Source: Schmidtea polychroa
Taxonomy: Eukaryota
Reading direction: 5' to 3'
DNA: 64,000 nt
NCBI GenBank assembly: GCA_044892525.1
Contig: CM097886.1
Coordinates: forward strand, 104,904,001 to 104,968,000
Translations under genes and position numbers: made by a program
Notes under the pieces: generated by a model
The model's input: only the letters and a program-made list of their open reading frames with translations
Database searches by the model: none
What the model was told of the DNA's origin: nothing
Shown here: piece by piece, positions 35,431 to 64,000 of the stretch
Layout: the number at the start of each line of letters is the position of its first letter
Numbering within the stretch: the stretch's first letter is position 1

Positions 35431-35937
35431 AGTGGTTATGAGTAGATAGATTGGGTACCGCTGGCACAGGGCATTGCTGGCACAGGGCTTTGCTGGCACA
35501 GGGTACGGCTAGAACACTTACCCCTGACTGGAAAATTTGTCTCGTATGACTCATCAAGGTCATTTAAACAAAGACAATGACTCATCTGATGACTCATCCA
35601 GGTCGCATGACTCATCCCATGACTCCGCAAGGTCAAGTTTTCAAGGTCATTTAAACAAAGTCCATGACTCATCAGTAGGTAGATGGGAGCCCGCTGGCAC
35701 AAAGACCTATGACTCATCACCTTTCAGTGATGACTCATCGATTGATGACTCGTCGTGTAGAGAGTGAGTCAGGGGTCACGTGGGTGTATCATATGTGTGT
35801 GTGTATGACTCATGGTCTTTGTTCTACAACGGTTCAAACCCATCATGTCGGGTGAAAAGCATGAGTCATATATATTTTTCAAAACAAAGACATGTAACCC
35901 CCCCCCATAATAGCAAAAAATTTTTATGACTCATATT
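35431..35937 (+). repeat. AP-1-motif-rich terminal segment; candidate left end of the outer Polinton-like element
   Basis: Begins AGTGGTTATGAG exactly where the duplicated flank (2487/35430) is interrupted. About ten TGACTCA/TGAGTCA motifs; runs into the satellite that resumes at 51099. Confidence 0.55.
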
Positions 35938-42427: not shown

Positions 42428-42429
42428 AA

Positions 42430-44240: not shown

Positions 44241-44255
44241 TTAATTATTATTAAA

Positions 44256-44834: not shown

Positions 44835-44981
44835 TTTTATAAATATAAAAATGGATGCATTTTTAAAAAAAAGTAGATCAAGTTGCTATAGTTGATACTT
44901 CTAAATTAAATTTGTAAAATGTTGGGTACTTCAGAATGACTTTCAGATTCTACTATGAGAAGAATAAGAAATGATTGAGGA

Positions 44982-45329
44982 ATGGGTTCTCCTTTTAGAC
45001 ATGCTGTTAAAAGTAAAAAGAAAGGGGTTGTTAATAAAAAGAATAAGGGTGAAACCAAACCTCCACCCGGTGAAACATTAGCAGGAAAATCTTTTTATTG
45101 TACAGATTGTTCAAAAGTTTTTAAATCTAGTAAATCTTCTCAGAATCATGTTTGTAAATCAAAAGATACTCTGGCCTCTGGGAACCTGACTTCTGGGGCT
45201 TCGCGACCTTCCGGGAATATATATATAGCATCTTTAATAATAAAAATCTTAAATCTGGAGGTCATTCTTAAAGGCATTCGGAAGATCATTCTGAGGAGGA
45301 AGAAGTTGAAACAAGTAAAAAACAATTAA
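44982..45329 (+). CDS. Basic C2H2-like Zn-finger protein (possibly frameshifted)
   Basis: FYCTDCSKVFKSSKSSQNHVC. Confidence 0.45.
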   Translation: MGSPFRHAVKSKKKGVVNKKNKGETKPPPGETLAGKSFYCTDCSKVFKSSKSSQNHVCKSKDTLASGNLTSGASRPSGNIYIASLIIKILNLEVILKGIRKIILRRKKLKQVKNN

Positions 45330-45383
45330 ATGATATTTAGAAGGGGTCGCTGAAAAGGAAAACTTAAAATTTTCGAGTATAAA

Positions 45384-45764
45384 ATGGATTGCGATTCAGT
45401 TGTTGCGATAATTAGTGAAGAACCTGAAATGCAAGAAGAATGTGTAAAGCTTTTAACAGAATTTAATAAACAAAGTATGGGAACTCAAGTTGATTATGGT
45501 AGACAAGCAATTGTTTATCGTGTTGGACAAGACGAAATATTAAAGAGATTGATGAATAGGACTGTTGATCTTCGTCTGGAAAATAAAGGATTAAAGGAAG
45601 AGAATGAATATCTATTTCGAAATGCTACTTTAGTTAATAAAAGTTTTATAGAATCTATGCATGGAAAACACATATTATTAAGTAATTCTAATGCTGTTCG
45701 GGATGAAGAAATGAGGATGGAAATCGAGGAGTTAATACGAAGACCAATACCAAAGATATTATAA
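45384..45764 (+). CDS. Hypothetical coiled-coil protein, 126 aa
   Basis: ATG-initiated ORF with heptad pattern. Confidence 0.45.
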   Translation: MDCDSVVAIISEEPEMQEECVKLLTEFNKQSMGTQVDYGRQAIVYRVGQDEILKRLMNRTVDLRLENKGLKEENEYLFRNATLVNKSFIESMHGKHILLSNSNAVRDEEMRMEIEELIRRPIPKIL

Positions 45765-45941
45765 TTAATATAAAAACCCCAATAATAAAAATTATTATAT
45801 TTCTTAGTCTACAAAGTTTTAAATAACATTCGTCAACAGCATCATATAATTTTTTAGTTTTGTTTATGAGTTCTTTATTTTTTGAATATCTTAAATTAAT
45901 TGTCGACATTTTATACATTTAAAAATCAAATATCATTAGTT

Positions 45942-48900
45942 TCAGTCATGGTTGAACTGGACCTTCTCTAACACCTGAAGGCTTTTCCTATGGGATTCGA
46001 AAGCATTATCACTTAGACCTTGAATATATTCAGGATCAGTATTAAAATAATCAAGTTCTATAGGTATTGATTTTTGAACTTTATTATATAGAGGTTTTTG
46101 GGGAATGTTTAATTTAAAATATTCATCCTTTGGGTAAACTCTTCCGGGGTAAATGATTTCAACTTTACTAAGTTGAACATCTGTTATGTTTGTACCATAG
46201 AGATCATTCAATCTTGCAAGTTTTTTTATTATTGGGATTAAATCATTTCCAATTGGAAGAGTTGTTTTTAAATCACTTAGAATAAATCTTTTATCATCAT
46301 AATTTGATAGTGATATCTTGGCTGATTCTTGCTGATACATATCATGCTTCACGGATTTAAGTTGATGTACCTCTTCTATTTTATCTAGAGAATCTTTATT
46401 TAGAGCGTCTTTATAATCTTGATGAGTGATTTTCTTGGATACTGATTTTTGTATCCCTTTGCATTTGTTGTCTTTAAGGGTTTTTATATCAGAGGTCCTT
46501 AATGGTCCTTCAAATGTATAATCTATTTCATCTCTAACCATATATATTTTTGTTTCTGTCAGACTCTCGATCATTTCAAGTGAATATTGTTTCGCTCTAA
46601 TAAATATAGCACCAGTTATTGGAGTATTTGGTTTTTCATCTTTGAATGTGAATAATTCACCGGATGAATTTATTAGTTTTGAAAGCATGGGGTTTTCAGA
46701 TATTTCTTTTTTTACATCTATACCATATATTTTTAAAAACATACTATCTGTATCCATTGCATGTAAGGATATTCGATCACCAAAGTATGGTACTAGAACA
46801 TCATAATAGGTTTCATACATTTGCAATTTTGATAATTCTAAAATAGCGAAGCCTATAAAGATTGGTTTATTATAAGTTTTTTGGTTATTTTGAATTTCAA
46901 TTGCTACAAGGTTCTTTGAGAATACTTCGGCATTTTTAAACGTTGGTTTTCCAAGCATTCTATTATATCTTGCAAAGTCTTTGGGGGTATTTGATAGAAG
47001 ACCTATTCGAGCATACTTGTCAATATTTTCCATAGTCTTACCAAAGACTGCGTTGTTTAAAAGTTTATAAATCATATCAAGAAAAGCATTACCTTGTCTT
47101 TTTGCTTCATTTCTCTTCTTAATATTTCCTTCTATAAAATTTTTCATAAATGGTGCTTGTCGGAATTTTATAATACTGTGAACTTTTTTAAATATCATTC
47201 CATGAGAGATGAAAAATTGTAGAAGCCTATAATGACAAAGATAAAACTTTACACCTTTTTGGTTGCAAAGAAGTTTCCTTGCAGGGGGTCTATTTTGACC
47301 GATTTGCCAATCTGAAAGTTCACTGATATCAATCTTTCTTCTTACAGGAGCAAATGGGAAATTCCTAGTTGAAGATTTTATTTCATCTGGGTACTCAAGA
47401 TCACACTCTATAAAATATCCAAAATCTGCATCTTTTTCAGTTGATAATATTTCATTTAAAAGATCTTCTAGTTTATCTTTTTCTTTAGGAATATCAACCC
47501 AGGAGAACTCACCAATTGGTAAATATTCAGTCATTACACCCCCATATAGAGCCGTTGCATCAAGATAAAATATTTCACATGGATTTGTTAAACATTCTTT
47601 TATAAATTTAGAGTCTCCTGGGTTTTCTATTACTATATAGTCTTCATCTATATCTTTAAAGAATTTTCTATAAACAGCTAATGGATTGTTTGCTGTTATC
47701 TCTCTATCTCCCATTACAGAGGAAATACCTCCTCTAATATTATGTTTAATTACATTAAACATATTAAGATCAGTTAATAGTTCTATAATTTTATTTCTTG
47801 TTTCTACATCTTCTTCCGTCCATATATTATATAACATTATATCCCAAGCTAAAGCGGGTGCTGTTATATAATTATAGGGTTTTAATTCAAAGGCTTTACA
47901 GAAACCTTCGAAGCAGTCTGCTAAAATATAAACATCAAGGGATAAATACATGTCGGTATATTCTCCAAGGTTTTGACAGTTGAATAATTGATACATTTTA
48001 TTTGCTCGAGAATATTCTTGATCTGTAATATTTGATTGTCGAAGCACTGAAGAGAAGTGGTCTTTAGGTGGTATTGCTTCATTATATTTATCAAATGAAT
48101 CAATATAATCATATGGATATATTCCTTTTGCTAAACATGTTGGATATTCTTCCAAGGGAATGTTATTTTTTATCAAAACATGCTCTGTTGTATATTTAAA
48201 ATCTTCTGGTTTCATTGTTTTAGCTATTCCATCTAAGGACATTCCTAGAAAATTTAGAGAATCTATAAATTTTAAACAACCATATTGTACACATTTATAT
48301 TTTTCTTTTGTAAGTCCTATAACCTTGAAAGAATTTTTAGCATTTGCTGCTAGATGTTTTATAAATAAATGTATATCATATCCAAAAAGATTATGAAATA
48401 TAACTGGTATAAATTTAGGTTTTTTACAATTTATGTTACAGTTTGTATGAGCTGCTCCTCTATAATTATTTAATTTTTTAAAATGATCATGATCTGGTAC
48501 TTTTATATTTTGAGTTTCATTATTCGGAGTTTGCCTTTCATGAAACATTCTTTGTTCTTCTTCTTCCAAAGACTCAGTATTCAAGGGGACTGTGTCCATA
48601 GACTCCATATTCAAGGGGACTGCGTCCATAGACTCCATATTCAAGGGGACTGCGTCCATAGACTCCGTATTCTCAAAGAGTTGATCCTCAAAGAATTGAT
48701 CCTCAAAGAGTTGATCCTCAAAGAGTTGATTCTCAAAGAGTTGATTCTCAAAGAGTTGATTCTCAAAGAGTTGATTCTCAAAGAGTTGATTATCAAAGAG
48801 TTGATTCTCAAAGAGTTGATTCTCAAAGAGTTGATTCTCAAATGGTTGTTTACACATCCAACATTTTGAAGCATTTTTATATTCTTCCCATTGTTCAATT

Positions 48901-50735
48901 GAAAAATTTATTTTATAATCTGTTTTTAATATTTTAAATAATTCATGTTCTAAATCATTTACATTTTTACTAAAATGATTTAGAACATCTTCTGGAGAGG
49001 TTCCTCTATATGAATATTCTTTAGATTCTATAAGTTCAGGGTAATTACTTTTAAATAATAATTTATAAGCAGATGGTACTTGTTTGGTTAATTTTATTGT
49101 ATAAGATTTTTTATTTAACTTTAGAAAGTTTTTCATACTCTCCCATGGCAGTCTTGGTGACTTTGGGGAATAATCATACCAAGAATCTGATAAATTATTA
49201 TTTTCTATTATTTTTAAATATTCTTTTTCTAAATCAAGCTTTATATTTATTGCTTCAAAGTCTCCATATATTACACCTATTGATTCTAATAAATTTGAAA
49301 AATTTTTAAAGTTTATGTCTGATTTTGTGGGCATTTTAATTAATGCTGGTTGGTTCTTCTCACATAATCTTTCATGCATAATCATTGCGTTTTTAGATGT
49401 TGAATAGTGAAGACATCTTTTACAAGTTGTTCCGCCTCTAATTAGAGTTCTTGTGCGCATAAAACTTTGAAAGTTTTTTATTAGAATATAGTGTTGTTTC
49501 CCTTCTGGGGTTTCTTCTTCATCTTGCTCTATAACTTGTTCATCTTCATTAAAAACATATTCCCCACATTCTTGATCTTGTCCTGTGCCCTCTTCTAATA
49601 TTAAAAGATATATTTCTCTATTTTTGTCTTGTTCTAATAATTCTTTATTTGAAATATAAATTGGTATAATACGTTTCTTAAAATCTTCTTTATCTAGAGC
49701 ATATTCATAAATATTAAGTTTAATATTATTTAAATTTTCAAATGTTGGAATGTCTTCAATTTTCATTGGATGTTTAAATCCTTCAGGATATATTAATTCA
49801 TTTTCATTTTGTTTATAATTAGAAACCCTTTGGGGATTCCTTGCTTGAGGATGCAAGTGTGCAAGTATTGACCATTGAAAACATTTGTTATCACTATTCT
49901 GTACATTTATAACATAGATGGAGGGGAATGGTGTGCGAATAAAAGATTTAGGATTTGGGGGTGCTGCTCTCCAATATTCAATTTCTATAGATTGAAAAGA
50001 ATAGAATCTTAAATTTGATTCTCCCAATTCTTGTTCTACAACCTCTTGTTGCTCTTCCATCTCTTCAGTCAAATCCTTGATGATTTTATTTATTCCCTTT
50101 GTTGAGAATAAATATTTAAAAGATGTTTCGATGTTAGAATCTAGAGGGGTTGTGCCTGCTTCTTCTCCTCTCCAATATTTTACCAAGATTCTAACTTTAT
50201 ATTTTATAACGTTGAATCTTGATCGACTAAATTTTTTTCGAGCATTGTCCATTGAATTTTTTATGTTTTGTTTATTTTTTCTTATATAATCTAAGAGTGA
50301 AGAGGAAAACATTTGTTCTCCAAATATATCTGTATGGTTGGAGTTGTCCCAATTATATTTTTCTTTTTCAATGTGTTCAGGTTCTTCCTCAAAATCTTCT
50401 TCAGACTCAGAATCTCTTTTAGGTATTGGTTGTTTGTTCTCTATAGCACATTTTTTTACATGTTTTAAAAAATAAGATTTTATATTAAATTTTGATTTAC
50501 ATATAGGACATTCAAATTTTTCTCTATTTTTAGGAACTCCAATACAACTTTCAAAATGTTTATCATATCCTGAAAGTAAATATCTAACTTTACATTTAGT
50601 ACAAATTTTTGAATTTGAATTATCAAGTCTATTTATTTTTAATAAATGGTCTTTTGATTTTTGGTGTGATAGTAGTGCGGTTTTATTTTTAAAATTTTTT
50701 TTGCAAATAGTACAATTATAAATATTAGAATTCAT
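45942..50735 (-). CDS. polB: Protein-primed B-family DNA polymerase (pPolB) with N-terminal Zn fingers/terminal-protein region
   Basis: YGDFE (ExoI), FHNLFGYD (ExoII), LDVYILAD (ExoIII), LDATALYG, KLLNNAVFGKTMEN and MDTDS. Confidence 0.96.
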   Translation of the reverse strand: MNSNIYNCTICKKNFKNKTALLSHQKSKDHLLKINRLDNSNSKICTKCKVRYLLSGYDKHFESCIGVPKNREKFECPICKSKFNIKSYFLKHVKKCAIENKQPIPKRDSESEEDFEEEPEHIEKEKYNWDNSNHTDIFGEQMFSSSLLDYIRKNKQNIKNSMDNARKKFSRSRFNVIKYKVRILVKYWRGEEAGTTPLDSNIETSFKYLFSTKGINKIIKDLTEEMEEQQEVVEQELGESNLRFYSFQSIEIEYWRAAPPNPKSFIRTPFPSIYVINVQNSDNKCFQWSILAHLHPQARNPQRVSNYKQNENELIYPEGFKHPMKIEDIPTFENLNNIKLNIYEYALDKEDFKKRIIPIYISNKELLEQDKNREIYLLILEEGTGQDQECGEYVFNEDEQVIEQDEEETPEGKQHYILIKNFQSFMRTRTLIRGGTTCKRCLHYSTSKNAMIMHERLCEKNQPALIKMPTKSDINFKNFSNLLESIGVIYGDFEAINIKLDLEKEYLKIIENNNLSDSWYDYSPKSPRLPWESMKNFLKLNKKSYTIKLTKQVPSAYKLLFKSNYPELIESKEYSYRGTSPEDVLNHFSKNVNDLEHELFKILKTDYKINFSIEQWEEYKNASKCWMCKQPFENQLFENQLFENQLFDNQLFENQLFENQLFENQLFENQLFEDQLFEDQFFEDQLFENTESMDAVPLNMESMDAVPLNMESMDTVPLNTESLEEEEQRMFHERQTPNNETQNIKVPDHDHFKKLNNYRGAAHTNCNINCKKPKFIPVIFHNLFGYDIHLFIKHLAANAKNSFKVIGLTKEKYKCVQYGCLKFIDSLNFLGMSLDGIAKTMKPEDFKYTTEHVLIKNNIPLEEYPTCLAKGIYPYDYIDSFDKYNEAIPPKDHFSSVLRQSNITDQEYSRANKMYQLFNCQNLGEYTDMYLSLDVYILADCFEGFCKAFELKPYNYITAPALAWDIMLYNIWTEEDVETRNKIIELLTDLNMFNVIKHNIRGGISSVMGDREITANNPLAVYRKFFKDIDEDYIVIENPGDSKFIKECLTNPCEIFYLDATALYGGVMTEYLPIGEFSWVDIPKEKDKLEDLLNEILSTEKDADFGYFIECDLEYPDEIKSSTRNFPFAPVRRKIDISELSDWQIGQNRPPARKLLCNQKGVKFYLCHYRLLQFFISHGMIFKKVHSIIKFRQAPFMKNFIEGNIKKRNEAKRQGNAFLDMIYKLLNNAVFGKTMENIDKYARIGLLSNTPKDFARYNRMLGKPTFKNAEVFSKNLVAIEIQNNQKTYNKPIFIGFAILELSKLQMYETYYDVLVPYFGDRISLHAMDTDSMFLKIYGIDVKKEISENPMLSKLINSSGELFTFKDEKPNTPITGAIFIRAKQYSLEMIESLTETKIYMVRDEIDYTFEGPLRTSDIKTLKDNKCKGIQKSVSKKITHQDYKDALNKDSLDKIEEVHQLKSVKHDMYQQESAKISLSNYDDKRFILSDLKTTLPIGNDLIPIIKKLARLNDLYGTNITDVQLSKVEIIYPGRVYPKDEYFKLNIPQKPLYNKVQKSIPIELDYFNTDPEYIQGLSDNAFESHRKSLQVLEKVQFNHD
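48577..48845 (-). repeat. In-frame coding minisatellites in pPolB: ~12 x 15 bp (LFENQ) and ~3 x 30 bp (NMESMDAVPL)
   Basis: Directly visible in DNA and translation. Lies between CWMC and DHDH of the EndoVII-like Zn module. Confidence 0.93.
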
Positions 50736-50854
50736 TTTTAAAAAAATTTTTTTTATTGGATGGGGTGTTTTTAAGATTTATAAAATATTTATAATTTTAG
50801 TTGGCACCGTGCCAAGTTAGCAGCTTGCTAGAAGGCGGCTTGCTATAAGGCATA

Positions 50855-51098
50855 AGTAGTGGTTATAAGACCCTCACGGACATAACCCTTTTGGTAGTTT
50901 GCTAAATTCCATCTCTTCTCCTTTTTTCTTATGTTTATAGGGCTTAAAAACAAAAACCCTCGGCTTTTTTTTGTTAAAAATAAGGGGTCTAAAAGAGTTA
51001 AAAGTGTAAAAATTAGGGGTGTTATTAGTATATATTAAGTGTTTGGAAGCAGCTTTCAACAGGGGGGTTGTGTCTGTGAGGGTCTTATAACCACTACT
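50855..51098 (-). repeat. Right terminal 244-bp module (inverted copy of 35938-36181)
   Basis: Near-identical reverse complement. Weaker TIR similarity continues ~80 bp inward. Confidence 0.9.
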
Positions 51099-51470
51099 CA
51101 TACTTTTTCAAAATTTTTCTAAGTCAAAACAAAGACATGTAAGAAATAGCAAAAAATTTTTATGACTCATACTTTTTCAAAATTTTTCTAAGTTAGAACA
51201 AAGACATGTACCCCCCCCCCTACCCCCTTGCAAAAAATTTTTATGACTCATACTTTTTCAAAAATTTTCTAAGTCAAAACAAAGACATGTAACCCCCCCC
51301 CCTAGTAAAAAAATTTTTATGACTCATACTTTTTCAAAATTTTTCTAAGTCAAAACAAAGACATGTAACCCCCCCCCCCATAGCAAAAAAAAAATTTTTA
51401 TGACTCATACTTTTTCAAAATTTTTCTAAGTTAGAACAAAGACATGTAACTCCTAGCATTAATTTTTATG
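51099..51470 (+). repeat. ~70-80-bp satellite (5 units) containing ATGACTCAT and C-runs
   Basis: Unit tcatactttttcaaaatttttctaagt(c/t)a(a/g)aacaaagacatgta(c)n..gcaaaaaatttttatgac. Polinton 1 is inserted in it. Confidence 0.88.
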
Positions 51471-52660
51471 AATCATTATTATTATTTCAAAATATTACTA
51501 TAATAATTAATATTATTATTATTGATATTAATACTATTTAAATTATTTTTATTATTAAACATCCTTAGTATTATTTTTTAAAATTATTGAATGACTTTAA
51601 TATTGCATCTGAATTGCATCTTTCTTTATTAAACTTGCAACTGTATTGCCGTTGTCTTTCTTAATCATATATTATTTTTTTTTCTAACCTATTATCTTTC
51701 AATTTATTTAAATATTATTATTATTATTATTATTAATATTATTATTATTATTATTAATATTATTTTTTTCTAAATCAATAACAAATAACTGATTAAAAAT
51801 TTATTGATTAAAAAATCTATTAAAAACTAAGAGCAAGACTTGCACGTTCTAATCTCCATATTGGAGAATAAATATTGTTTTGGTCCACTTTGAATTCTAA
51901 GTTAGAACAAAGACATGTATCCCCCCCTCTATTTTTAAATTTTTTATTATATATATTTTTTTCAAACAATTTTAGTTTCTAATTATTATTATTTCAAAAT
52001 ATTATTAATATTATTATTAATATTATTACTATTTAAATTATTATTATTATTAAACATCCTTAGTATTATTAATATTATTTTTTAAAATTATTGAATGACT
52101 TTAATATTGCATCTGAATTGCATCTTTCTTTATTAAACTTGCAACTGTATTGCCGTTGTCTTTCTTAATCATATATTATTCTTTTTTCTAACCTATTATC
52201 TTTCAATTTATTTAAATATTATTTTTATTATTATTATTAATATTAATATTATTATTATTAATATTATTTTTTTCTAAATCAATAACAAATAACTGATTAA
52301 AAATTTATTGATTAAAAAATCTATTTAAAACTAAGAGCAAGACTTGCACGTTCTAATCTCCATATTGGAGAATAAATATTGTTTTGGTCCACTTTGAATT
52401 CTAAGTTAGAACAAAGACATGTATCCCCCCCCTCTATTTGTAAATTTTTTATTATATATATTTTTTTCAAACAATTTTAGTTTCTAATTATTATTATTTC
52501 AAAATATTATTAATATTATTATTGATATTATTACTATTTAAATTAGTATTATTATTATACATCCTTAGTATTATTAATATTATTTTTTAAAATTATTGAA
52601 TGACTTCAATATTGCATCTGAAATGCATCTTTCTTTATTAAACTTGCAACTGTATTGCAG
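51430..52660 (+). repeat. ~470-500-bp AT-rich tandem units (left inverted-repeat arm)
   Basis: AAGTTAGAACAAAGACATGTA recurs at ~51428, ~51899 and ~52403. Confidence 0.85.
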
Positions 52661-52819
52661 CGGTCTTTGTTAATCATATATTTTCTATCCTTATTTGTGT
52701 TAGCAAGGGTCATTATATAATAACTTATACAAATTATTATTAAAACAACCAATGAAAGCCATACACATAAATGGTATAAATAAAATGAAAAACAAAAAAA
52801 AATCATATTTCATTTAAAA

Positions 52820-53333
52820 ATGAACGCGGAAATAATTGAAATTTAGACGGAGTGGTATCAAATGAAAGGGGAGGTGAATTAATCACAAATATTCAAATTC
52901 TCGTGGATGAAGCCATGAAAATTTACAGAAGGAATCCCGTCGATTTTTCGTGGATCCTCACAAGGAAAACCATAAATGCAAAGGAAAATGCATTTAAAAG
53001 CATATTTTATTCCTTATTTGAAAATATGAAGTGGTCACGGGTCATCGTGGCTTTCTTATACATGAAAATTATTTTACAAAGATCTGAAGAGAACTATGAA
53101 AGATACTTTCAATGGTCTGTACAGGTATGTGTATATATATATATATATATTTTTAAAATAATATCTAGATAATTCAAAATGAAATTTCGCCATGGGTATC
53201 AGAAAATGGATCCTGGAATGTCATTAATGAAATTGTTGAAAAACGAAAATCTCAAGACAAGACAAAATTAATTTTAATAATGTTTGGAATTACTGTATGT
53301 TGTTTTTCTATAAAATATATTTTTAAAAAGTAG
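52820..53333 (+). pseudogene. bcl2-like: Intron-containing Bcl-2 family gene (intron 53125-53168), with lesions
   Basis: Exon 1 has BH1-like LFENMKWSRVIVAFLY. A phase-0 44-nt GT-AG intron follows. Exon 2 has BH2-like ISPWVSENGSW, then a TM anchor LILIMFGITVCCFSIKYIFKK after a 1-nt frameshift. Confidence 0.75.
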
Positions 53334-53680
53334 TACTTCTTTTATTCTTTAATATTGTAAAATAAAAAAAATTTTAATCTTTATTATTTATTACACTATA
53401 ACATTCGCATTCCTCGTCACCACATTTATTATCTTTATTTGTTTCTTCATCATTGTTCATATTTTTGTCATATTGTGCATCATCCGATATATGATTATAT
53501 ATTTATTCCGGTCATTTCTAATATTTTTTCGGCTAAATACTTTATCAGATCATCTATAAAAATAATTAAAAAAAAAATAATAATATTAATAATTTAATAA
53601 TTAATAAATAATAATATTAATAAATAATAATATTAATAAATAATAATATTAATAAAATAATAATATTAATATTTGTTGAG

Positions 53681-54193
53681 GTGTGTGAGTCTGATGAGTT
53701 AAATAAATTAAATAGTGTGAGCAAGGATGATGAGCCTAAATTTGTGTTAGTATTGCCGTACTCAGAAGGTTTTAAGGATTATAAAGTGAAGATAAGAAAG
53801 CAGTTAGGGAATTTAAACTATAGGATAGTGTCAACTTCATGGAAAGTACGCAATATGTTTATTAATAAGTCAAAGACTCCGGTTGAATTGTGTTCCGATC
53901 TCGTTTATCAGTTGTCATGTAATGGGTGTAATGCCACATACATTGGAGAGACTTCCCGTCATCTCTGTATTCGAGCTCGAGAACATTGTAGACCGAAGTC
54001 TTTGACCCATATTGGTGAGCACAATAAGGGCTGTAAGATTAAAATAGGTATGTCTGATTTTAAAATTTTATTAAAAAACTTTGATAATTATTGGGAACGT
54101 GTGATTTGTGAGGCGTTGTTGATAAAATCATTGAATCCGAAAATTAATGTGCAGAATGCTGTAAATACTTGTGTGTTGAGTGTTTTTAAATAA
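53681..54193 (+). CDS. Penelope RT C-terminus + GIY-YIG endonuclease (fragment)
   Basis: VY..SC..C...YIGET motif with the CCHH pattern typical of PLE endonucleases. Confidence 0.88.
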   Translation: MCESDELNKLNSVSKDDEPKFVLVLPYSEGFKDYKVKIRKQLGNLNYRIVSTSWKVRNMFINKSKTPVELCSDLVYQLSCNGCNATYIGETSRHLCIRAREHCRPKSLTHIGEHNKGCKIKIGMSDFKILLKNFDNYWERVICEALLIKSLNPKINVQNAVNTCVLSVFK

Positions 54194-54387
54194 GCTTTTG
54201 TGTATTGTATGTATTGTTTGTTGTGTTAAATTAAATAATTGATAAAAAATTTTTAAATTTTTAAATTATTAAATTAAATTTTAAATGTTAAAGTTTTTAA
54301 AAAAAAAATAATATTTTTATAAAATAAAAAATTTTTTATATATAATTAAATTTGTTTAAAATCCTTTATTTAATAAGTATTATATCC

Positions 54388-54426
54388 CACCTGATGATGA
54401 CAGGAAAACTGTCGAAATTAATCGTG
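54388..54426 (+). ncRNA. Minimal type I hammerhead ribozyme
   Basis: CAC-CUGAUGA-U-GACAG(GAAAA)CUGUC-GAA-AUU/AAU-C^-GUG: intact core, 5-bp stem II, palindromic stem III, 3-bp stem I. Confidence 0.85.
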
Positions 54427-54832
54427 AAAAAAATGTTTGATTGGCGTTATCTTATAATTAAATCATTGCCATGTATGTTTAACTATTTATTAATAATAAA
54501 ATACCTTTTTCATTTAAAGTAGACATTTTATGTATTTTATGTATTATGTGTCTTTGTTTATTTGCATGTTTATTGCACATGTCTTTATGTTATTCATGTG
54601 ATGACTTAGTCATCTCTTTGTTAAAAATACTCATCATTTCCTTGTTTAAATTTAGTAGTCATGTCTTTCTAATTTACATGCTATTTATTTTTTCTAACCA
54701 ATCACAATTCTGATTGGTCAATTTTATCATTTCACTAAATACTCAATTTCGATTGGTCGGTGAGTAAATCTTTTTGTTTTGATATTATGTATAATCATTA
54801 CTTTTAATTTCACTTTTAGAAAATTTCAAAAT

Positions 54833-57800
54833 ATGAACAAGCAAATATTCATGACTAAAGAAGAAGAATTGATTTCGCGAAAAAGTAAATTTATTATTTT
54901 TATTTTTAAACTTGAATTTATTATTATGTTTTAGGAAATGTTTGTCGCTTTTTCATTGGGAATCCGAAAAAAGCTCGTTTAGGAAACATACAGCAAAGCA
55001 AAATTTATTTAATTTTTAAAATTTTATTAATATTTTCCTATTAGATGTTTTAGCTTCAACTTCCGCTTCTATTCGATCCAATTTTTTGCCTGTGGATATT
55101 GATGAAGGTAAATTATTATTACTATTCAAAATATATATATATATATATTCAGAAAACAACCAAAATGTACCCAACAAATCTCCCAGGAATGACAAAAAAG
55201 AAAAATATTTAATGAACAATGCCATTCAAAAACCAAACATGCCCAATATTTCGACAAATGCCAAACAAAAATTAACCAACAAGTCTCGCAGGAAGAACAA
55301 AAAAGAAAAATGTAAGTGTTTTCAAATTGAAATATGTGATTCGAATAATTTATTTATTAATTATGATATATATATTTTAAAGTAATTTATATTTTAGTTT
55401 TTATTACGTTTTTATAAAATAATAACTGTTTTCCAATTGAAATATATGATTAGAATAATTTATTTAATAATTATGATATATATATTTTCAAGTAATTTAT
55501 ATTTTAGAATTTATTATGTTTTTATAAAATAATAACTGTTTTCCAATTGAAATATATGATTAGAATAATTTATTTAATAATTATGATATATATATTTTAA
55601 TGTAATTTATATTTTAGAATTTATTATGTTTTTATAAAATAATAACTGTTTTCCAATTGAAATATGTGATTCGAATAATTTATTTAATAATTATGATATA
55701 TCTTTTTTCAAGTAATTTATATTTTATTACTTTTTATAAAATAAATAATTCAAAATAATTATCGATTTTTTTTTTAAATTATTTTATTTGGAAAAATTTA
55801 CATTTTAATAATATTTTTGAAAATAAATTTCATAATAGTTATCAACTTAAATAATAAAAACATTTAATGAAATAGTTAAAACCGATAAAAAAATTATAAC
55901 AAATTCTGAGGAAACTGAAATTATTGCACCAGAACCTATAGCAATTACTGAGGTTATAATAATTTCTGATGACGATGAAAATGTACAAGAAGAAGAAGAA
56001 TATGGAGCTGAAGATCACGAGGGAGACCGTAGAGAAGATAGGCCAGAAGATGGTGGAGAAGATGGAGCTGAAGATCGTGGAGAAGATGGTGCTGAAGATG
56101 GGCCAGAAGATGGTGGAGAAGGCCTTGGAGAAGATGAATAAAATTTACCAGTGATCGAATATGATTTGAATCGATTGCATAGAGTAATAAAATTAAACAT
56201 TGAAAGATATAATATGAATACCATTGAATTACCAGTTCCTATTTTACTTGCATTGAGAAATGCTTTAAACGAACTCGGTCACGCAAAAATCCAATTTGGG
56301 GTTAATGTGGAATTTATTAAAGATGGAGGCACAAAAACTGCGTGGATTTCCAATAAAGCAACAGAATATTCAGAAACATTCCTTGAGCAAGGTATTAAAA
56401 AATTATACGAAAAAATAAATGTTCGAACTGTTGCGGGAAGCAGTTGGATTGTGAACAAAGTGTTAGAAATAATTTTCACTGTCACAAAATATCATCCAAT
56501 AAGTAGGCTAAGCGGACATAGCTACTTGAAGACACCAGCGACTTTAGCTAATAAACATGCTATAGTTAATATTAAAAATACGGATAATTTATGCTTTCTT
56601 TATAGCATACTTTGTATTAAAAATTTGGATGTAATTCGAACAAATAGGCAACGAGTTGAGAATTATGCAGATTATATGGATCAATTGATGTATGATGAGG
56701 AAGATTTTCCTATGCAGTTATCTAACATAAGGAAATTCGAGCGAATTAATCCAGGACTGGCAATCAATGTTTTCAGTTACACTTGCACAAATGTTTTGAA
56801 CATCGATGAAAATGATGAGGAAACCGTTTTTAAACATCCGAATTTGGATATAATACATCGGACTAAAGTAGAGGGCGTAGCACCGATCTATTTGCTAATG
56901 TTGGAAGAAGGTGAAAAGTTTCACTATACTGCTGTTACTAATATGCAGCGGTTAATGAATTGTCATGAGAAGGAAGATTGCCCAGTTCGGATTCAGTGCA
57001 AATGGTGCGAAACATGTCTGAATGGCTTTAGAAAAGATATGGCTTTTGAAAAACACAAAGTAATTTGCAGAAAAAATATGCTCGGTACTACAATGTACAC
57101 GATGCCTCAAAATAAAGATTTGGTATTTAGTGATTGGTCCAAAACAGTCACTCCACCATATGTTATTTACGCCGATTTCGAGGCGATCTTACCCGATGAT
57201 GAAATACATCATCAAATTCATTTACCAATAGCAGTGGGGCTGTTGTTGATAAATAATTTCACTGGGGTAAGTCAATACCATCAATTTATTGGGCCGGAAT
57301 GTATTGTGGAGTTTTTGGCAAAAATTGAACAACTGGGGCAGCAAGTAGTTTTGCCATACTATTATAGAAATGCAAGGAAAACAATGATAATGTCAGCAGC
57401 AGAACGGATAGCATATAATAGGGCGCGAGTGTGTTATCTGTGCAATAAAAGAAAATATTTAGTCAGAGATCATGACCATTTTACGGGCGAATATTTGGGC
57501 GCAGCATGCAATGACTGCAATTTATCAAGACAAATAAGATATTTATTACCGGTAGTATTTCATAATCTGAAAGGATATGACTTACACCATATTTTGAAAT
57601 ACGGACTCAATGAATTTACACATTGGTCCTTAAATTGTATTCCAACAACAACGGAAAAATTTTTATCATTGATGGTGAGAATAAAAAACTTAACCGTGCG
57701 TTTCATTGACAGTTTGCAGTTTGTCAATGATTCGTTGGCAAAAGCGGTTAAGACATTGAGTGGATTACCGCTAACTCGTTCAGTATTTGGTGGAACATTG

Positions 57801-59458
57801 GTAGAAACAAAAGGGATTTTCCCTTATAATCATGCGAAAAGCTTAGAAATTTTGGAAAACACAACAGAATTGCCACCGATTTGGGAAAAAGTAACACAAG
57901 AAGAATATCAGAAAGCACTGGAAATTTGGGAAGAAACCGGTTGTCAAAATTTACTGGATTACATGAAAATATATTTGAAGCTGGACGTGTATTTACTGGC
58001 CGACGTATTCCAGCAGTTTCGAGCAAGATCAATAGCGCACAATAAATTGGAGCCACTAAATTTCTTTGGTATTCCCGGAATGAGTTGGGCATCGGCACTC
58101 ATGACGCTAAGGGAACCCATCGAGCTTTTAGTCGACATCGAAATGTACAATTTTTTCGATGGAGGTATACGTGGTGGTCTCACATTTGTGAATAAACACT
58201 ATGCAGTGTCGTCAGAAAACACTGAGTTGTTGTATATCGACATCAACAACTTATACGGCTGGGCATTGAGTCAAAAATTGCCATGTAAAAATTTTAAATG
58301 GATACTGGAGGAATCGGATTTGGAATCGATTTTGGAACAATGTGTGAATCAAGATTTAGAAACATTGGATTATGGCTATACCATGGAGGTGGACATGGAA
58401 ATTCCAGATGATTTACACGACAAATTCGATGATTTCCCAATCGGTGCAGAGAAGATGAAAGTGAATAAAGTCGAAAAGTTAATGCTAACACATTTACCAA
58501 AAACAAACTATGTTTTACATTGGCGACTCCTGAAAATGTACATGTCATTGGGTGTACAAGTGGAGAAGATACACCGGGCAATAAAATATGAGCAAAAATG
58601 TATCTTTAAGAACTATATAGATACGAATACACAATTGCGGGCAAATTCAACAAATGCTCTGGATAAAAACTACTACAAGTTATTGAACAATAGCTTGTAT
58701 GGCAAAACAGTAGAAAATTTAAAGAAGCGGTTGAATCTGAGGCTGTGCAACAAACAATCAAAAATGGAAACTTATGCCTCAAAGCCCACATTTAGGAGGT
58801 CGATCAAAATAGCAGATGATCTGATAGCAGCAATATTGAATATGGAAACTGTATGTTTAGATAGGCCAAGTTACATTGGGCAAAGTGTACTTGACTTATC
58901 CAAACTTAGAATGTATGAATTGCACTATGTAGAACTGGAGAAGTATGCAGTATAGATATTTTAGCAGGGGACACGGATAGTTTTTTCCTGGAATGTAAGA
59001 ATGTGAAGTTGAGAACACAATTACTTCCAGCCATGATTGCCGATAATTTATTGGATACAAGCAATTATGATCCGACAGACCCTTTGTACAATCAAAACTT
59101 GGATTCAGTTATAGGGAAATTCAAGGATGAAAATAAAGGTAAAAAATATAAAGAAATGATATTTCTAAGACCCAAGTGCTATAGCCTCTTGAATGAAGAT
59201 AATGATACAACAAATAAGGCAAAAGAGGTAAATTTAGAGGATAGTATTATAAATCATCAATCATATGTAGATTGTTATAATGGTATGGAAATACCGCCAA
59301 TTCCTCAAAGTAATATAAGCACTAGAAATCATCAGCTTTTCACTATAAAAAATAATAAGGTTGCATTAACAAATACTGATGATAAAAGGGTCTGGGTTGC
59401 TATAAATAAAAGTCATGCATATGGGCATTATGCAGTAAATTGGCGGGCTCCTATTTAA
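54833..59458 (+). pseudogene. polB: Spliced pPolB gene of element 2 (exons 54833-54884, 54935-54997, 55045-55107, 55153-55311, 55876-59458), with TAA at 56139 and a frameshift near 58950
   Basis: YADFE, FHNLKGYD, LDVYLLAD, DINNLYG, KLLNNSLYGKTVEN; GDTDS lies in the shifted frame. The four upstream introns are all phase 1 and keep the frame. Confidence 0.75.
55321..55748 (+). repeat. 110-bp tandem repeat (~3.9 copies) inside predicted intron 4
   Basis: TTC(A/C)AATTGAAATAT starts at 55321, 55431, 55541 and 55651. Confidence 0.9.
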
Positions 59459-59504
59459 CAACCAGGTTCACAAGAACTTATATATAATCGGTAAAAATTA
59501 TTAA

Positions 59505-59583
<79 letters not shown>
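59505..59583. repeat. (TAT)n microsatellite
   Basis: Direct reading. Similar tracts at ~51715-51765 and ~62395-62468. Confidence 0.95.
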
Positions 59584-60082
59584 GTTTCAGTAGTATCATC
59601 AGTTTAAATTTCTACAGATTATTTCAAACCCGATTNNNNNNNNNNNNNNNNNNNNNNNNNNNNNNNNNNNNNNNNNNNNNNNNNNNNNNNNNNNNNNNNN
59701 NNNNNNNNNNNNNNNNNNNNNNNNNNNNNNNNNNNNNNNNNNNNNNNNNNNNNNNNNNNNNNNNNNNNNNNNNNNNNNNNNNNNNNNNNNNNNNNNNNNN
59801 NNNNNNNNNNNNNNNNNNNCTATCAGCGAGTCGTGTTTGCCCTGATAACTTGTTATGTTGCTCAATGGTATTATTATTATTATTTTAGAATTTTAGTTTT
59901 ATTCACCACAGTGCTTTCAATTTGAGAACGAAAAAACGGTGCTCTTTAGGGTCCCAAATATTGATTGTAAAAAAAAAAACTTTGAGAATGTGTAACGGTC
60001 CTCTTTAGGGCTATAATTTGAGAATGTGTAACAGTCCTCTTAGGGCTATAATTTATGATTGTATAAAATAAAAAGCATTTAT

Positions 60083-60430
60083 TTAAACAGATAAATAATC
60101 AATAGCCCCCAATAAACATTGTTGATACGCGCAATTTAGATGAGTTCCATAAATACAGTGAATATTTTCTGGGATTTTCCGAATGGTTTTGAATTGATAC
60201 AATATTAATCGTAAATTCGGGAAGCTTTTCTTTAGTTTTTGATACTTTCTTTCATCGATAACATAGAAAATACTTTCATTTTTTATTGTTTTCAAATATT
60301 CTTCGTGAAATTTCGAATTAATGTAAACACAATGTATAGGCTCTAAAATATTATTCACATCCATAATACATAATTCAGTAACAGTATCAAATAGAATATC
60401 AATGAAAAAACAAGTCATTTTAAAAAACAT
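60083..60430 (-). CDS. Hypothetical protein of element 2
   Basis: ATG-initiated 115-aa ORF directly downstream of the protease; no motif recognised. Confidence 0.4.
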   Translation of the reverse strand: MFFKMTCFFIDILFDTVTELCIMDVNNILEPIHCVYINSKFHEEYLKTIKNESIFYVIDERKYQKLKKSFPNLRLILYQFKTIRKIPENIHCIYGTHLNCAYQQCLLGAIDYLSV

Positions 60431-60434
60431 TTAT

Positions 60435-60836
60435 TTAGTAATGTTTATACATTAGCCAAGCAAGACAATGTTGACCACATGTTTGAGTCAATGGATGTTG
60501 AAACTGAATTTTGTTGTATTCAATAGGACCACCATATAAGGTTAGTTTTTTGATCAAAAGAGTAATATAATAGAAACCCATAGGTTCGAAAACATATACG
60601 TTATCGGGCTTCTTATAGACTGCAATCCAGTGTTCTCCACCAAGAGTAGACGAATCAGTGTTGACAATAATGGGTTTTTTTTTAAATAGGGGATTTTATC
60701 TAATGGGTACACTCCAACAAACTTATTTCACAGAATTTGATAACCAATTCGATTAACCTGAACAGAATGATTATAATAATAACATTAGTTATTAAAAACT
60801 TACTCCATGACAAGCTAATTTCTTTCTTTACTTCAT
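60435..60836 (-). pseudogene. Adenain-like cysteine protease (not in ORF track), with predicted intron 60758-60803, stops and a frameshift in an A-run
   Basis: Manual translation gives KFVGVYPLDKIP / PIIVNTDSSTLGGEHWIAVY...FEPMG...NKIQFQHPLTQTCGQHCL. Confidence 0.8.
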
Positions 60837-60854
60837 TTATGATCAATAAAAAAA

Positions 60855-61242
60855 ATGTTTGTTCAAACCAACAATGCGGAAACAAACCTAAAGCGAAAAA
60901 CATACTATTATATTTTTCAAAACTGGAAAATGTTGAATAATGGGTTGTAAAGCTACAATAATTACGAATGATTTGCAGTATAAAAATACAAATATAGTGT
61001 TACAATAAATTACCGTTACTATAGATCTGGGAAAATGTATTAATTTATACAAATTGAGTAAACAAACCAATTGCATGTTCGAACCAGAATTATTTCCAGC
61101 TTTGAGATATATAAAATATAACCCTATGTGTGTCAATGTGTTTTCGAGTGGAAAAGTTGTTGTGTTAGGGCTTAGAAATTTAGGTTACATCTCATTCGTT
61201 GATAATTTAGTAAAGGATATCATAAGATTGGTTGAGAAATGA
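60855..61242 (+). pseudogene. tbp-like: TATA-binding-protein-like gene with in-frame stops
   Basis: One frame reads HTIIFFKTGKC*IMG...LQ*ITVTIDLG..INL..L...FEPELFPAL......CVNVFSSGKVVVLG, matching both TBP repeats (TALIFSSGK; YEPELFPGL...IFVSGKVVLTG). Confidence 0.75.
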
Positions 61243-61301: not shown

Positions 61302-61669
61302 ATGAATAATCTTACTGAAAATGGTATTTTATAATTAATTATTTTCAATTTTATCATTTATATTTAGAAAAGTTGATGTCGATTTTGTTAATGAAAATGG
61401 ATGAATTATATCCAAAAATATGTTCAGATCTGATGTGTTGCGCGCCGGAGATTCTTCCATTCCGAATTAAGATGGCAACAGGAATCAATCTAGTTGAAAT
61501 CCTACAAAAGCATTTGAATACAATCGACAATGATTTGCCTATTATTGTGCATCCAGGAGTTTGCGCTTATGAGTGCGATGCATGCATGGATCGTCTTCGC
61601 GTTTATCATATTTGGGTTTTACATGCGGAACTACGCAAAAACCACTTCAGTTCCATTGTTGATCTATAA
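61302..61669 (+). CDS. Two-exon hypothetical protein (intron 61324-61367)
   Basis: ATG exon of 22 nt, a 44-nt GT-AG phase-1 intron, then joins ORF 61373-61669 in frame; contains CxxCxxC. Confidence 0.55.
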
Positions 61670-61994
61670 TAAATGTTTTTATGTTTTGTAATGTTTTATT
61701 ATTTGTTACATAAATTGTAAATTTAATTAGGTTGACAATTTTTATTAGTATTAAGTTATTTTATAATATTAAGAATTTTTATAGTGTAATAAATTGTTTT
61801 ATATTATTAAACCATGCAACACTTAAACAAGGCAAAGGCAACACAAATGCACGATTCTGATTGGCCGACCTTTGTTATAAATAAACAATGCTCTTTTTAT
61901 TAATCATAATTTCAAAATGAATAAGAAAATAAGTGAAAACAAAATTGTTGAGAAACCTGCTCTACAACCAGAGTAACTTTTCCATAATTTCAAA

Positions 61995-62330
61995 ATGTAT
62001 TTCCTAAAAGATCCGATGGAAATAAAGTTAACGAATCCTGTCAAGTTATGCAAAACTCTTTATCCCCATCTTATGGCAACTTTGTCAACAGAAGATGTTG
62101 AAGTTTTAAAGAAATTGTTTACGAAAATCAATAACAATATCCAAGTAACGAATACAGTGTTTTTCAATGTTCGTCAAGCTCGATTTTATGATGCATTTCA
62201 AGAAATTATATTCAAGGAGAATAAAAACTGGTATGTCACAATAAAGATTCAAGGATTCAAAGTAGACCAAAACAATATTTATTCTCCAATATGGAGATTA
62301 AAACGTGCAAGACTTGCTCTTGGTTTTTAA
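61995..62330 (+). CDS. Hypothetical protein, possibly an OB-fold ssDNA-binding protein
   Basis: C-terminal V.IKIQG......SPIWRL strand pattern is reminiscent of viral SSBs; weak. Confidence 0.35.
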   Translation: MYFLKDPMEIKLTNPVKLCKTLYPHLMATLSTEDVEVLKKLFTKINNNIQVTNTVFFNVRQARFYDAFQEIIFKENKNWYVTIKIQGFKVDQNNIYSPIWRLKRARLALGF

Positions 62331-62403
62331 TAGATTTTTTTTTAATCAATAAATTTTTAATCAGTTATTTGTTATTGATTTAGAAAAAATAATAATAATA
62401 ATG

Positions 62404-62468
<65 letters not shown>

Positions 62469-63341
62469 TTGAAAGATAATAGGTTAGAAAAAAAAACATA
62501 TGATTAAGAAAGACAGCGGCAATACAGTTGCAAGTTTAATAAAGAAAGATGCAATTCAGATGCAATATTAAAGTCATTCAATAATTTTAAAAAATAATAT
62601 TAATAATACTAAGGATGTTTAATAATAATAATAATTTATATAGTAATAATATCAATAATAATATTAATAATATTTTGAAATAATAATAATTAGAAACTAA
62701 AATTGTTTGAAAAAAATATATATAATAAAAAATTTACAAATAGAGGGGGGGGGGGGGGGGGATACATGTCTTTGTTCTAACTTAGAATTCAAAGTGGACC
62801 AAAACAATATTTATTCTCCAATATGGAGATTAGAACGTGCAAGTCTTGCTCTTAGTTTTTAATAGATTTTTTAATCAATAAATTTTTAATCAGTTATTTG
62901 TTATTGATTTAGAAAAAAATAATATTAATAATAATAATAATAATATTAATAATAATAATAATAATAATATTTAAATAAATTGAAAGATAATAGGTTAGAA
63001 AAAAAATAATATATGATTAAGAAAGACAACGGCAATACAGTTGCAAGTTTAATAAAGAAAGATGCAATTCAGATGCAATATTAAAGTCATTCAATAATTT
63101 TAAAAAATAATACTAAGGATGTTTAATAATAAAAATAATTTAAATAGTATTAATATCAATAATAATAATATTAATTATTATAGTAATATTTTGAAATAAT
63201 AATAATGATTCATAAAAATTAATGCTAGGAGTTACATGTCTTTGTTCTAACTTAGAAAAATTTTGAAAAAGTATGAGTCATAAAAATTTTTTTTTGCTAT
63301 GGGGGGGGGGGGGGGGGGTTACATGTCTTTGTTTTGACTTG
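62255..63341 (-). repeat. Right inverted-repeat arm
   Basis: Reverse complement of the 51346-52400 units. Confidence 0.85.
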
Positions 63342-64000
63342 TTAAAGTAAATTGTTAAAGTATTATTTTAAATTTCTCCAGATTATTTCAAACCCGATTN
63401 NNNNNNNNNNNNNNNNNNNNNNNNNNNNNNNNNNNNNNNNNNNNNNNNNNNNNNNNNNNNNNNNNNNNNNNNNNNNNNNNNNNNNNNNNNNNNNNNNNNN
63501 NNNNNNNNNNNNNNNNNNNNNNNNNNNNNNNNNNNNNNNNNNNNNNNNNNNNNNNNNNNNNNNNNNNNNNNNNNNNNNNNNNNNNNNNNNNNNNNNNNNN
63601 NNNNNNNNNNNNNNNNNNNNNNNNNTCCGAGTTTATCCGACAAAATATTCTGTCCCCCTATGAGTATTTGTCGTAAGGGTACTGCTCACGCTCAACGCAA
63701 GGGTATTGTTTCTGTCTAATACAATTATTCAGAAGAGAAATTTTCTCAATTTTATTTACTTTAAAGCGAAATATCGCCGAGAGAAAAAAATTAGGGAAAG
63801 TGTAATTTGTACTCTGCACATGATTTTTGCATGAGTCCTATTCAAATGAAATATTACAAGTTATTATTGTTCAAACATAGCTAAACGTTAATTTATATTG
63901 GCAAATAATAAGTTGGAATTAATGCCATCAAATTTGTATGAGACTTTGATTTTTGATCAAAATATAATTAATTTTCCTTGGGTCGAATAGAATTTATGTC

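What the first reader, a model, noticed from the sequence alone, without database searches (positions are those of the whole stretch)
54833..59458. Intron-rich Polinton-like element: a five-exon pPolB
Seen: introns of 50, 47 (GC donor), 45 and 564 nt, all phase 1, splice four small exons in frame to an acidic ED-rich segment that continues into pPolB across one TAA (56139). Three other genes have 44-46-nt GT-AG introns. Known: Polinton core genes are generally intronless. Inference: a lineage adapted to host-type splicing. Alternatively the spliced part is a separate gene ending at that TAA.
Basis: partly seen in the sequence, partly recalled or inferred. Interest (0 to 1): 0.74.

Follow-up and report, generated by a model that had tools for sequence, protein, structure and literature searches.

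The report
Spliced Polinton polymerase, dead copy
This is a broken copy of a virus-like jumping element (Polinton/Maverick) whose whole lineage has splice sites at the front of its DNA polymerase and protease genes and so likely needs the host's splicing machinery to make them, although the core genes of such elements are described as intron-free; spliced RNA has not been seen.

Summary
Largely real, partly misread. Exons 1-4 and introns 1-3 (50, 47, 45 nt, phase 1) hold, and so does the fourth donor. The GC donor, the TAA at 56139 and the 564-nt intron are damage in this copy: 9 of 9 sibling copies have a GT donor, 7 of 7 a sense codon, and siblings carry about 310 more bases that hold the true acceptor. 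Across six subfamilies (about 60% identical) that acceptor is phase 1, and the split codon is predicted to give a cysteine that unspliced relatives encode directly. The leader exons differ between subfamilies. The protease gene has a 36-41-nt intron after codon 2, shared with a distant metagenomic relative. The integrase and Bcl-2-like genes have introns in some subfamilies only. A separate clade has 44-53-nt introns elsewhere in the pPolB front end. Host short introns have a median near 46 nt. No spliced RNA was found. The window's copy also lacks the capsid, integrase and ATPase block. The scan noted this lineage before, on other pieces of this genome, and similar cases in other genomes.

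The parts
35674..35937 (+). Left terminus (AGTAGG) and outer part of the left terminal inverted repeat; interrupted by a second Polinton
   Evidence: Same terminus as sibling copies, which show 6-bp target duplications
51099..52691 (+). Inner part of the left terminal inverted repeat (70-80-bp and 505-bp repeats)
   Evidence: Inverted match to 62252-63340
52820..53300 (+). Bcl-2-like gene with a 44-nt intron at 53125-53168; frame broken near its start in this copy; ends approximate
   Evidence: Pfam Bcl-2 E 1.3e-7 in a sibling subfamily, 0.0073 here; subfamily B has no intron at this place
53600..54488 (+). Insertion with a GIY-YIG fragment (Penelope-like; that name is recalled)
   Evidence: Absent from sibling copies; Pfam GIY-YIG E 0.001, under the cut-off
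54833..54884 (+). pPolB leader exon 1 (ATG)
54885..54934 (+). Intron 1, 50 nt, GT-AG, phase 1
   Evidence: Donor GT in 8 of 9 siblings, acceptor AG in 9 of 9
54935..54997 (+). Leader exon 2
54998..55044 (+). Intron 2, 47 nt, phase 1; GC donor in this copy only
   Evidence: GT in 9 of 9 siblings
55045..55107 (+). Leader exon 3
55108..55152 (+). Intron 3, 45 nt here; holds an AT microsatellite that is longer in several siblings
55153..55311 (+). Leader exon 4 (Asn/Lys-rich, basic end); its last base opens the split codon
55312..55855 (+). Remnant of the long intron 4 (110-bp tandem repeats); its acceptor is deleted here
   Evidence: Donor GT in 6 of 9 siblings; 325-1046 nt long in siblings; deletion of 303-319 nt
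55856..56141 (+). Remnant of the large exon: acidic linker, ending in a stop found in this copy only (56139-56141)
56142..58955 (+). pPolB body: terminal-protein-like region, vOTU Cys/His motifs, endonuclease VII insert, Exo I-III, PolA, PolB
   Evidence: Pfam PF03175 E 8.7e-34 and PF02945; motif positions (motif names recalled)
58919..59458 (+). pPolB C-terminus with PolC, in another frame because of a short deletion in this copy
60430..60808 (-). Adenain-like maturation protease; intron after codon 2 (donor 60803); acceptor lost and gene broken here; 3' end approximate
   Evidence: Pfam Peptidase_C5 over the cut-off in a sibling; intron tally
60892..61230 (+). Single-repeat TBP-like gene, 5' end lost at the junction where the capsid-penton-integrase-ATPase block is deleted
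   Evidence: Pfam TBP; block present in 5 other subfamily-A copies in whole or part
61302..61669 (+). Two-exon gene of unknown family; intron 61324-61367 (44 nt, phase 1)
   Evidence: no Pfam match
61918..62330 (+). Conserved small ORF (32% to subfamily B), stop in this copy
62252..63340 (-). Right terminal inverted repeat, cut off by another insertion; true terminus not found

Best explanation
The stretch is a dead, internally deleted copy of a Polinton (Alpha-adintovirus-type) lineage whose polymerase mRNA is very likely made by the host's RNA polymerase II and spliceosome: one to four small leader exons are predicted to be joined to one large exon through a conserved phase-1 intron whose removal would complete the first cysteine of the N-terminal Cys/His domain. 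Shown: conserved donors and acceptors, open frames, the cysteine in unspliced relatives, and the lesions of this copy. Inferred: (1) The ancestor began Met-x-Cys in one exon; an intron entered that Cys codon. (2) Sequence upstream was then recruited as short exons, mostly phase 1-1, that can be added, lost or swapped without breaking the frame; hence the unrelated leaders. (3) Introns collect where they are tolerated: the variable front of pPolB, codon 2 of the protease, one site of the integrase, and accessory genes. The TP-vOTU-exonuclease-polymerase body and the capsid and ATPase reading frames stay single exons. (4) The spliced product would be leader, Cys/His domain, acidic linker, TP, vOTU and polymerase, cut by its own vOTU as proposed for Polintons in general. 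This copy cannot make it.
For: The start motif of the large exon occurs in 18 of 20 top pPolB loci and 3 of 3 more, each with AG in phase 1. AG in 65 of 65 locus hits, 35 distinct copies by my count from the place tables; only the A is tested, background 42 of 126. No in-frame ATG before an upstream stop in 58 of 65 hits, and in two subfamilies a stop sits directly before the motif, yet C8, H13, C17 and H18, ahead of the first Met, are invariant at 33-45% identity. A T|GTAAG donor lies at the family distance in 17 of 23 copies of subfamilies B-F. An automatic search found an open phase-1 leader with a TGT split codon in 18 of 31 loci; subfamily D would give TGC, also Cys (read by eye). In database relatives, 35 of 38 anchored domain copies have Cys 5-7 residues before C8, 16 exactly at the split position. 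In 7 of 8 metagenomic loci with the domain, an in-frame ATG lies within a few codons of that Cys. Protease: 14 hits (12 copies) in subfamilies B-E open to 112-118 codons through a 36-41-nt intron; relative L168 has the same start unspliced and L153 has the intron. Host kinase introns: median 46.5 nt, 14 of 20 at 43-51. The six subfamilies form one clade, support 99.
Against: No spliced RNA. One contig of a run guessed to be RNA crosses the family acceptor unspliced, with 52 intron bases; it may be DNA, pre-mRNA or from a dead copy. The subfamilies share ancestry, so the tallies are not independent. 6 of 23 copies lack the donor at the family distance and were not inspected. 13 of 31 loci gave no leader, a wrong one or no motif. 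Subfamilies B and D use an AAG acceptor (24 of 65 hits). In 7 of 65 hits (5 of subfamily E, 2 of A) an in-frame ATG lies upstream in the intron, so an unspliced product without the Cys is possible. Only 8 of 12 exon-length changes in subfamily A keep the frame, about three events, which is weak. Subfamily D has a second strong donor nearer the acceptor. The host intron sample is small, called de novo, and limited to 28-133 nt.
Confidence: 0.86

Rival explanations
1. Only the last intron is coding. The short upstream introns lie in the 5' UTR, and translation starts at an ATG in the last small exon, so the multi-exon protein leader is overstated.
For: The last exon of A holds its own in-frame ATG, and the search stopped there in 3 copies. 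E has a single coding leader exon behind a UTR-type intron, and B and C have in-frame ATGs close to the last donor. The leaders are low-complexity and not homologous between subfamilies.
Against: In A, D and F all upstream exons are open and phase 1 from the first ATG. The last exon of F has no in-frame ATG in the modelled leader.
Confidence: 0.2
2. No splicing is needed. pPolB starts at the conserved Met 21 of the large exon and the splice-like sites are chance matches in AT-rich DNA or relics.
For: Met 21 is invariant. The nearest database relatives with the domain, P0057 and P0059, are called from it, though an intron-blind caller would do that too. One unspliced contig.
Against: Four invariant Cys/His residues lie ahead of Met 21, behind in-frame stops. 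The split codon matches a conserved Cys. The protease has no in-frame ATG ahead of its conserved N-terminal part unless spliced.
Confidence: 0.06
3. One reading: in this copy a 564-nt intron and a GC donor are used, with read-through of the TAA or a separate small gene ending there.
For: The join at 55875 keeps the frame, so a cryptic splice in this one copy cannot be excluded.
Against: All three features are lesions of this copy. The copy has a further frame break and lacks the capsid block.
Confidence: 0.03

Closest known systems
Animal Polintons/Mavericks, Alpha adintovirus class (PMC8502044, passages read)
   Same: PF03175 pPolB with OTU motifs, rve integrase, packaging ATPase, adenain protease and jelly-roll capsid gene in complete siblings; Bcl-2 cargo is reported there too.
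   Different: The pPolB and protease starts, and the integrase in some subfamilies, are split by spliceosomal-type introns. The paper has no hit for 'splic'; its one 'intron' hit concerns a group II maturase.
Vertebrate Mavericks (PMC8097293, passages)
   Same: Terminal inverted repeats, 6-bp target duplication, core gene set.
   Different: [quoted passage not shown]
Nematode Mavericks with intron-bearing cargo (10.1101/2022.07.12.499685, passages)
   Same: Introns inside a Maverick.
   Different: There the introns are in captured cargo and the core genes are called intronless; here they are in core genes.
Introners in dinoflagellate eupolintoviral elements (PMC12166617, passages)
   Same: Spliceosomal introns inside Polinton-like elements.
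   Different: Those are transposon-derived and mostly inserted after integration; these are short AT-rich introns inherited at fixed places across diverged subfamilies.
TP-vOTU-pPolB polyprotein of Polintons (10.1101/2024.03.18.585575, passages)
   Same: Domain order of the body.
   Different: No hit there for 'intron', 'splic' or 'zinc'; the leader and Cys/His domain lie ahead of TP.
Adenovirus E2 unit (PMC7851563, passages)
   Same: A protein-primed polymerase of the same supergroup made from host-transcribed, spliced RNA. That its first three residues come from a small upstream exon is recalled, not read.
   Different: Adenoviruses do not integrate and have TP as a separate gene; their introns lie mostly in untranslated regions.

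Membership tests
Polinton/Maverick | Protein-primed family B polymerase | tested here: met
   PF03175 E 8.7e-34; Exo and Pol motifs
Polinton/Maverick | Retroviral-type integrase | tested here: met
   In the lineage: rve E 1.2e-11 in subfamily B; in 2 subfamily-A copies by tblastn. Deleted from the window's copy.
Polinton/Maverick | Packaging ATPase | tested here: met
   Pox_A32 over the cut-off in a sibling subfamily; in 2 subfamily-A copies. Deleted from the window's copy.
Polinton/Maverick | Adenain-like cysteine protease | tested here: met
   Peptidase_C5 over the cut-off in a sibling; broken homologue at 60430-60808
Polinton/Maverick | [quoted passage not shown] | tested here: inconclusive
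   A conserved 410-420-aa ORF beside the protease; Pfam DJR-like only E 0.005, under the cut-off, on a fragment, and no match for the whole ORF of subfamily B. Not folded. Deleted from the window's copy.
Polinton/Maverick | [quoted passage not shown] | tested here: met
   Repeats in the window; exact 6-bp duplication in 2 of 3 sibling end pairs, 5 of 6 bases in the third. The window copy's right end is missing.
Polinton/Maverick | Intronless core genes (descriptive, PMC8097293) | tested here: not met
   pPolB, protease and in part integrase carry predicted introns. This is the variant feature; I treat it as a description of the elements studied so far, not as the family's definition.
Alpha adintovirus | OTU domain plus PF03175-type PolB | tested here: met
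   vOTU-type Cys and His motifs at 56583 and 56919 (motif identity recalled, no fold made), PF03175
Alpha adintovirus | Virus particles or free linear DNA | not testable with these tools
   No data
U2-type spliceosomal introns | GT-AG ends, host-like size | tested here: met
   the protease introns (36-41 nt) are at the short edge of the host sample
U2-type spliceosomal introns | Removed from RNA | tested here: inconclusive
   No junction in three contig sets guessed to be RNA, with very little cover

The most novel reading that the evidence does not exclude
Spliceosome-dependent Polintons are a widespread, overlooked class. In this one the split Cys codon is a socket for exon shuffling: phase 1-1 leader exons are swapped so fast that subfamilies E and F, 0.07 changes per site apart in pPolB, have unrelated leaders. 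Introns at the very start of the polymerase and protease would act as a licence that limits replication and particle maturation to nuclei, and hosts, whose spliceosome handles 36-51-nt introns. Presence/absence pairs (integrase, Bcl-2-like, protease) would be a dated series of intron gains.
Probability: 0.3. Interest if true: 0.75.

Novelty: new variant of a known kind. Interest (0 to 1): 0.55.

Why it matters
Two papers read here describe Polinton core genes as intronless, and one uses that to define intact elements. A lineage with spliced starts would be annotated as truncated or dead, and its polymerase and protease N-termini would be wrong in databases. Inherited introns in core genes would also tie these elements to nuclear, host-driven transcription, unlike virophages that use a giant virus's machinery (established knowledge, not tested here). 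Close subfamilies that differ by single introns are a compact system for studying intron gain, a long-open question. The window's copy itself is an ordinary decayed remnant.

Tried and rejected
RNA: no RNA holder listed. Contigs of three runs guessed to be RNA and one other run, laid on sibling stretch L057:2850-4720, barely cover the leader; no GT-AG joint at any predicted intron; the one joint in X1 lies in the length-variable acidic repeat and ends GT..GG. Lack of cover says nothing. The first attempt on the window itself laid nothing, so the window copy's own junctions and the other genes' introns are untested in RNA. A protein search with residues 1-420 of a subfamily-B pPolB found nothing among full-length candidates. 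No relative in viral contigs. The profile search returned no leader-bearing, transcript-like protein of this lineage among 53 hits, of which I read 22 in full. Fold of the 100-residue exon start: mean pLDDT 69; best match Z 3.5, none at Z 5 or more, so the fold is unassigned and 'zinc-binding' rests on the Cys/His pattern only. The alternative GC donor at 54993 breaks the frame. A 46-51-nt protease intron to the next AG was rejected: it puts the only nearby ATG out of frame. The first tree run timed out; FastTree was used, with local support only, midpoint root, the top hits chosen by hand, and L155 filling 11% of columns. In one search one of 20 kinase loci was given on the wrong strand and 7 gave no intron. 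My note says 19 of 20; the count is 18 of 20. Papers not held: Kapitonov and Jurka 2006, a 2024 review, a 2015 review. Repbase entries and paper supplements were not seen and may describe spliced Polinton genes. PMC6431247, PMC11296320, PMC12220804, PMC10748475, PMC4040987 and 10.64898/2025.12.11.693146 were read as passages; none reports spliceosomal introns in Polinton core genes or gives this host's modal intron size.
Full report
The four small exons and three short introns are there as described: ATG 54833, introns of 50, 47 and 45 nt, all phase 1, an open 112-codon leader and a strong donor at 55312. The 564-nt intron ends at an AG at 55875 that keeps the frame into the acidic stretch, which stops at TAA 56139. 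The pPolB body follows (Pfam PF03175 E 8.7e-34).

Sibling copies correct the model. The own genome (781 Mb) gave 49 scored pPolB matches, a lower bound. Two are 97-98% identical to the window's protein; the rest are near 60%. Ten copies of the window's subfamily (A) were aligned over the leader. The codon at the TAA is a sense codon in 7 of 7 siblings that hold the anchor motif, of 10 examined. At 55855/55856 the window lacks 303-319 bases against the 4 siblings that could be measured, of 9 tried. The missing piece holds the end of the long intron and the start of the large exon, a Cys/His-rich domain. The window also has a frame break before PolC that 8 of 8 other copies with both motifs lack, an insertion at 53600-54488, and a deletion of the capsid-integrase-ATPase block that other subfamily-A copies keep in whole or part. 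It is a dead copy.

The long intron is a lineage feature. The large exon starts with the same motif in 18 of 20 top loci and 3 of 3 more; the two misses are the window and one rearranged copy. All 65 locus hits, 35 distinct copies by my count, have AG in phase 1 at that point; the motif fixes the G, and the A occurs before 42 of 126 comparable codons. More telling: in 58 of 65 hits no in-frame ATG lies between the upstream stop and the motif, and in subfamilies B and D a stop directly precedes it. Yet four Cys/His residues ahead of the first Met are invariant at 33-45% identity. Upstream, a T|GTAAG donor stands at a family-specific distance (196-1960 nt) in 17 of 23 copies of B-F. An automatic search gave an open phase-1 leader with split codon TGT in 18 of 31 loci; 10 gave no chain, 2 a wrong one, 1 no motif. 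D was read by eye: three exons, all phase 1, split codon TGC. The leaders are unrelated between subfamilies: four exons in A, three in D and F, two in B and C, one repeat-expanded exon in E.

Unspliced relatives confirm the junction. A profile of the exon start found 53 proteins among 1.84 billion. Of 42 domain copies aligned near the start, 38 could be anchored; 35 have a Cys 5-7 residues before the anchor, 16 exactly where the split codon falls, and the 3 without are cut short. Many begin Met-x-Cys. In DNA, 8 of 75 metagenomic loci hold the domain, and in 7 an in-frame ATG lies a few codons before the Cys. The ancestral start was therefore probably one exon, and the intron entered the Cys codon. 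The six subfamilies form one clade (support 99). A separate clade has 44-53-nt introns downstream of the domain instead, and unspliced relatives lie between the two. This points to at least two sets of gains; the tree is FastTree with a midpoint root, so the order is not tested.

Other genes. The minus-strand gene at 60430-60808 is the adenain-like protease. Fourteen hits (12 copies) in B-E open to 112-118 codons through a 36-41-nt phase-2 intron after codon 2; the 9 hits of the deleted A derivative are all broken (26 loci given). Of the two metagenomic loci with the protease, L168 has the same start without an intron and L153 has the intron, so this one is old or arose twice. The integrase has an intron in C and E but not in A and B. 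The Bcl-2-like gene has one in A but not in B. Capsid and ATPase ORFs start at an in-frame ATG. A rough host sample, 20 introns from 13 of 20 kinase loci, has a median of 46.5 nt, matching the leader introns.

RNA. No junction was found. One contig of a run guessed to be RNA crosses the acceptor unspliced. Splicing is thus inferred from conservation, not shown.

How it most likely works. Host polymerase II would transcribe from a CCAAT-box promoter before exon 1. The spliceosome would remove the short introns and the long one, completing the Cys, to give leader, Cys/His domain, acidic linker, TP, vOTU and polymerase. Self-cleavage by vOTU is proposed for Polintons generally (10.1101/2024.03.18.585575, passages). 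Since the exons ahead of the junction are mostly phase 1-1 and low in complexity, they can turn over freely: E and F differ by 0.07 changes per site in pPolB yet share no leader. I see no evidence for a benefit; tolerated gain in a nuclear, intron-rich host is enough.

Against what is known. The lineage meets the Polinton tests except the capsid fold (inconclusive) and intronless core genes. PMC8097293 (passages) and 10.1101/2022.07.12.499685 (passages) call core genes intronless. PMC12166617 (passages) reports introners in Polinton-like elements, mostly inserted after integration. Six searches (listings, not all hits listed) showed no paper on inherited spliceosomal introns in Polinton core genes. 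Three key papers and Repbase were not available. The scan's own notes record this lineage on other pieces of this genome and spliced Polinton genes in other genomes. They gave me two paper leads and the integrase check, and are not evidence. I had reached the pPolB reading before and the protease intron.

Verdict. Observation partly confirmed, interpretation right in substance. New variant of a known kind; confidence in splicing 0.86; interest 0.55, held down by the lack of RNA and of any shown function for the introns.

Noticed in passing
window 35938-51098: A second Polinton of another lineage is nested in the left terminal repeat of the intron-bearing one (flanks match in 5 of 6 bases). Its capsid, integrase-PLA2, ATPase and 1611-codon pPolB frames are single ORFs with their own ATG: an intronless contrast in the same window.
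   Followed up: partly
window about 4000-34300: Giant LTR retrotransposon with a 4733-codon Gag-fusion glycoprotein-Pol-ankyrin ORF and a RING-MATH gene; matches the description of planarian Burro elements (PMC6431247 passages). This is the basis for calling the host a probable planarian.
   Followed up: partly
L035:3208-3270; L031 minus strand, integrase: Integrase intron just before the second catalytic motif in subfamilies E (42 nt, both ends in a 7-11-base direct repeat) and C (ATT repeat body), absent in A and B. Looks like gain by local duplication; lead from e1-9281158 and e1-9047361.
   Followed up: partly
L169:231-941; L172:447-1104; L153, L155, L159 starts: A separate clade of metagenomic relatives has three or more 44-53-nt GT-AG introns between the Cys/His domain and TP, with the Cys codon unsplit. 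L169 and L172 solved by script, the others read by eye; L153 and L169 are nearly identical.
   Followed up: yes
L168:990-1500: A Cys/His-domain gene with several short introns inside the domain itself, on a contig whose protease has no intron.
   Followed up: no
window 60892-61230: Single-repeat TBP-like gene, found in the four subfamilies A, B, C and E; could direct the element's own promoters.
   Followed up: partly
window 60800-60890; L058, L061, L066, L067: The same deletion of the capsid-integrase-ATPase block is shared by at least five copies, so a defective derivative spread as its own subfamily.
   Followed up: partly
window 54697-54760: Three CCAAT-type boxes just upstream of exon 1, a likely host-type promoter (seen).
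   Followed up: no
own genome, table: Several pPolB matches lie as close inverted pairs (6-10 kb apart), for example the pair in L037 and L038.
   Followed up: no
window 59460-59870, 63340-64000, 34400-35430, 970-2250: Repeated insertions of another element family, partly read as N, cut into the element and its surroundings.
   Followed up: no
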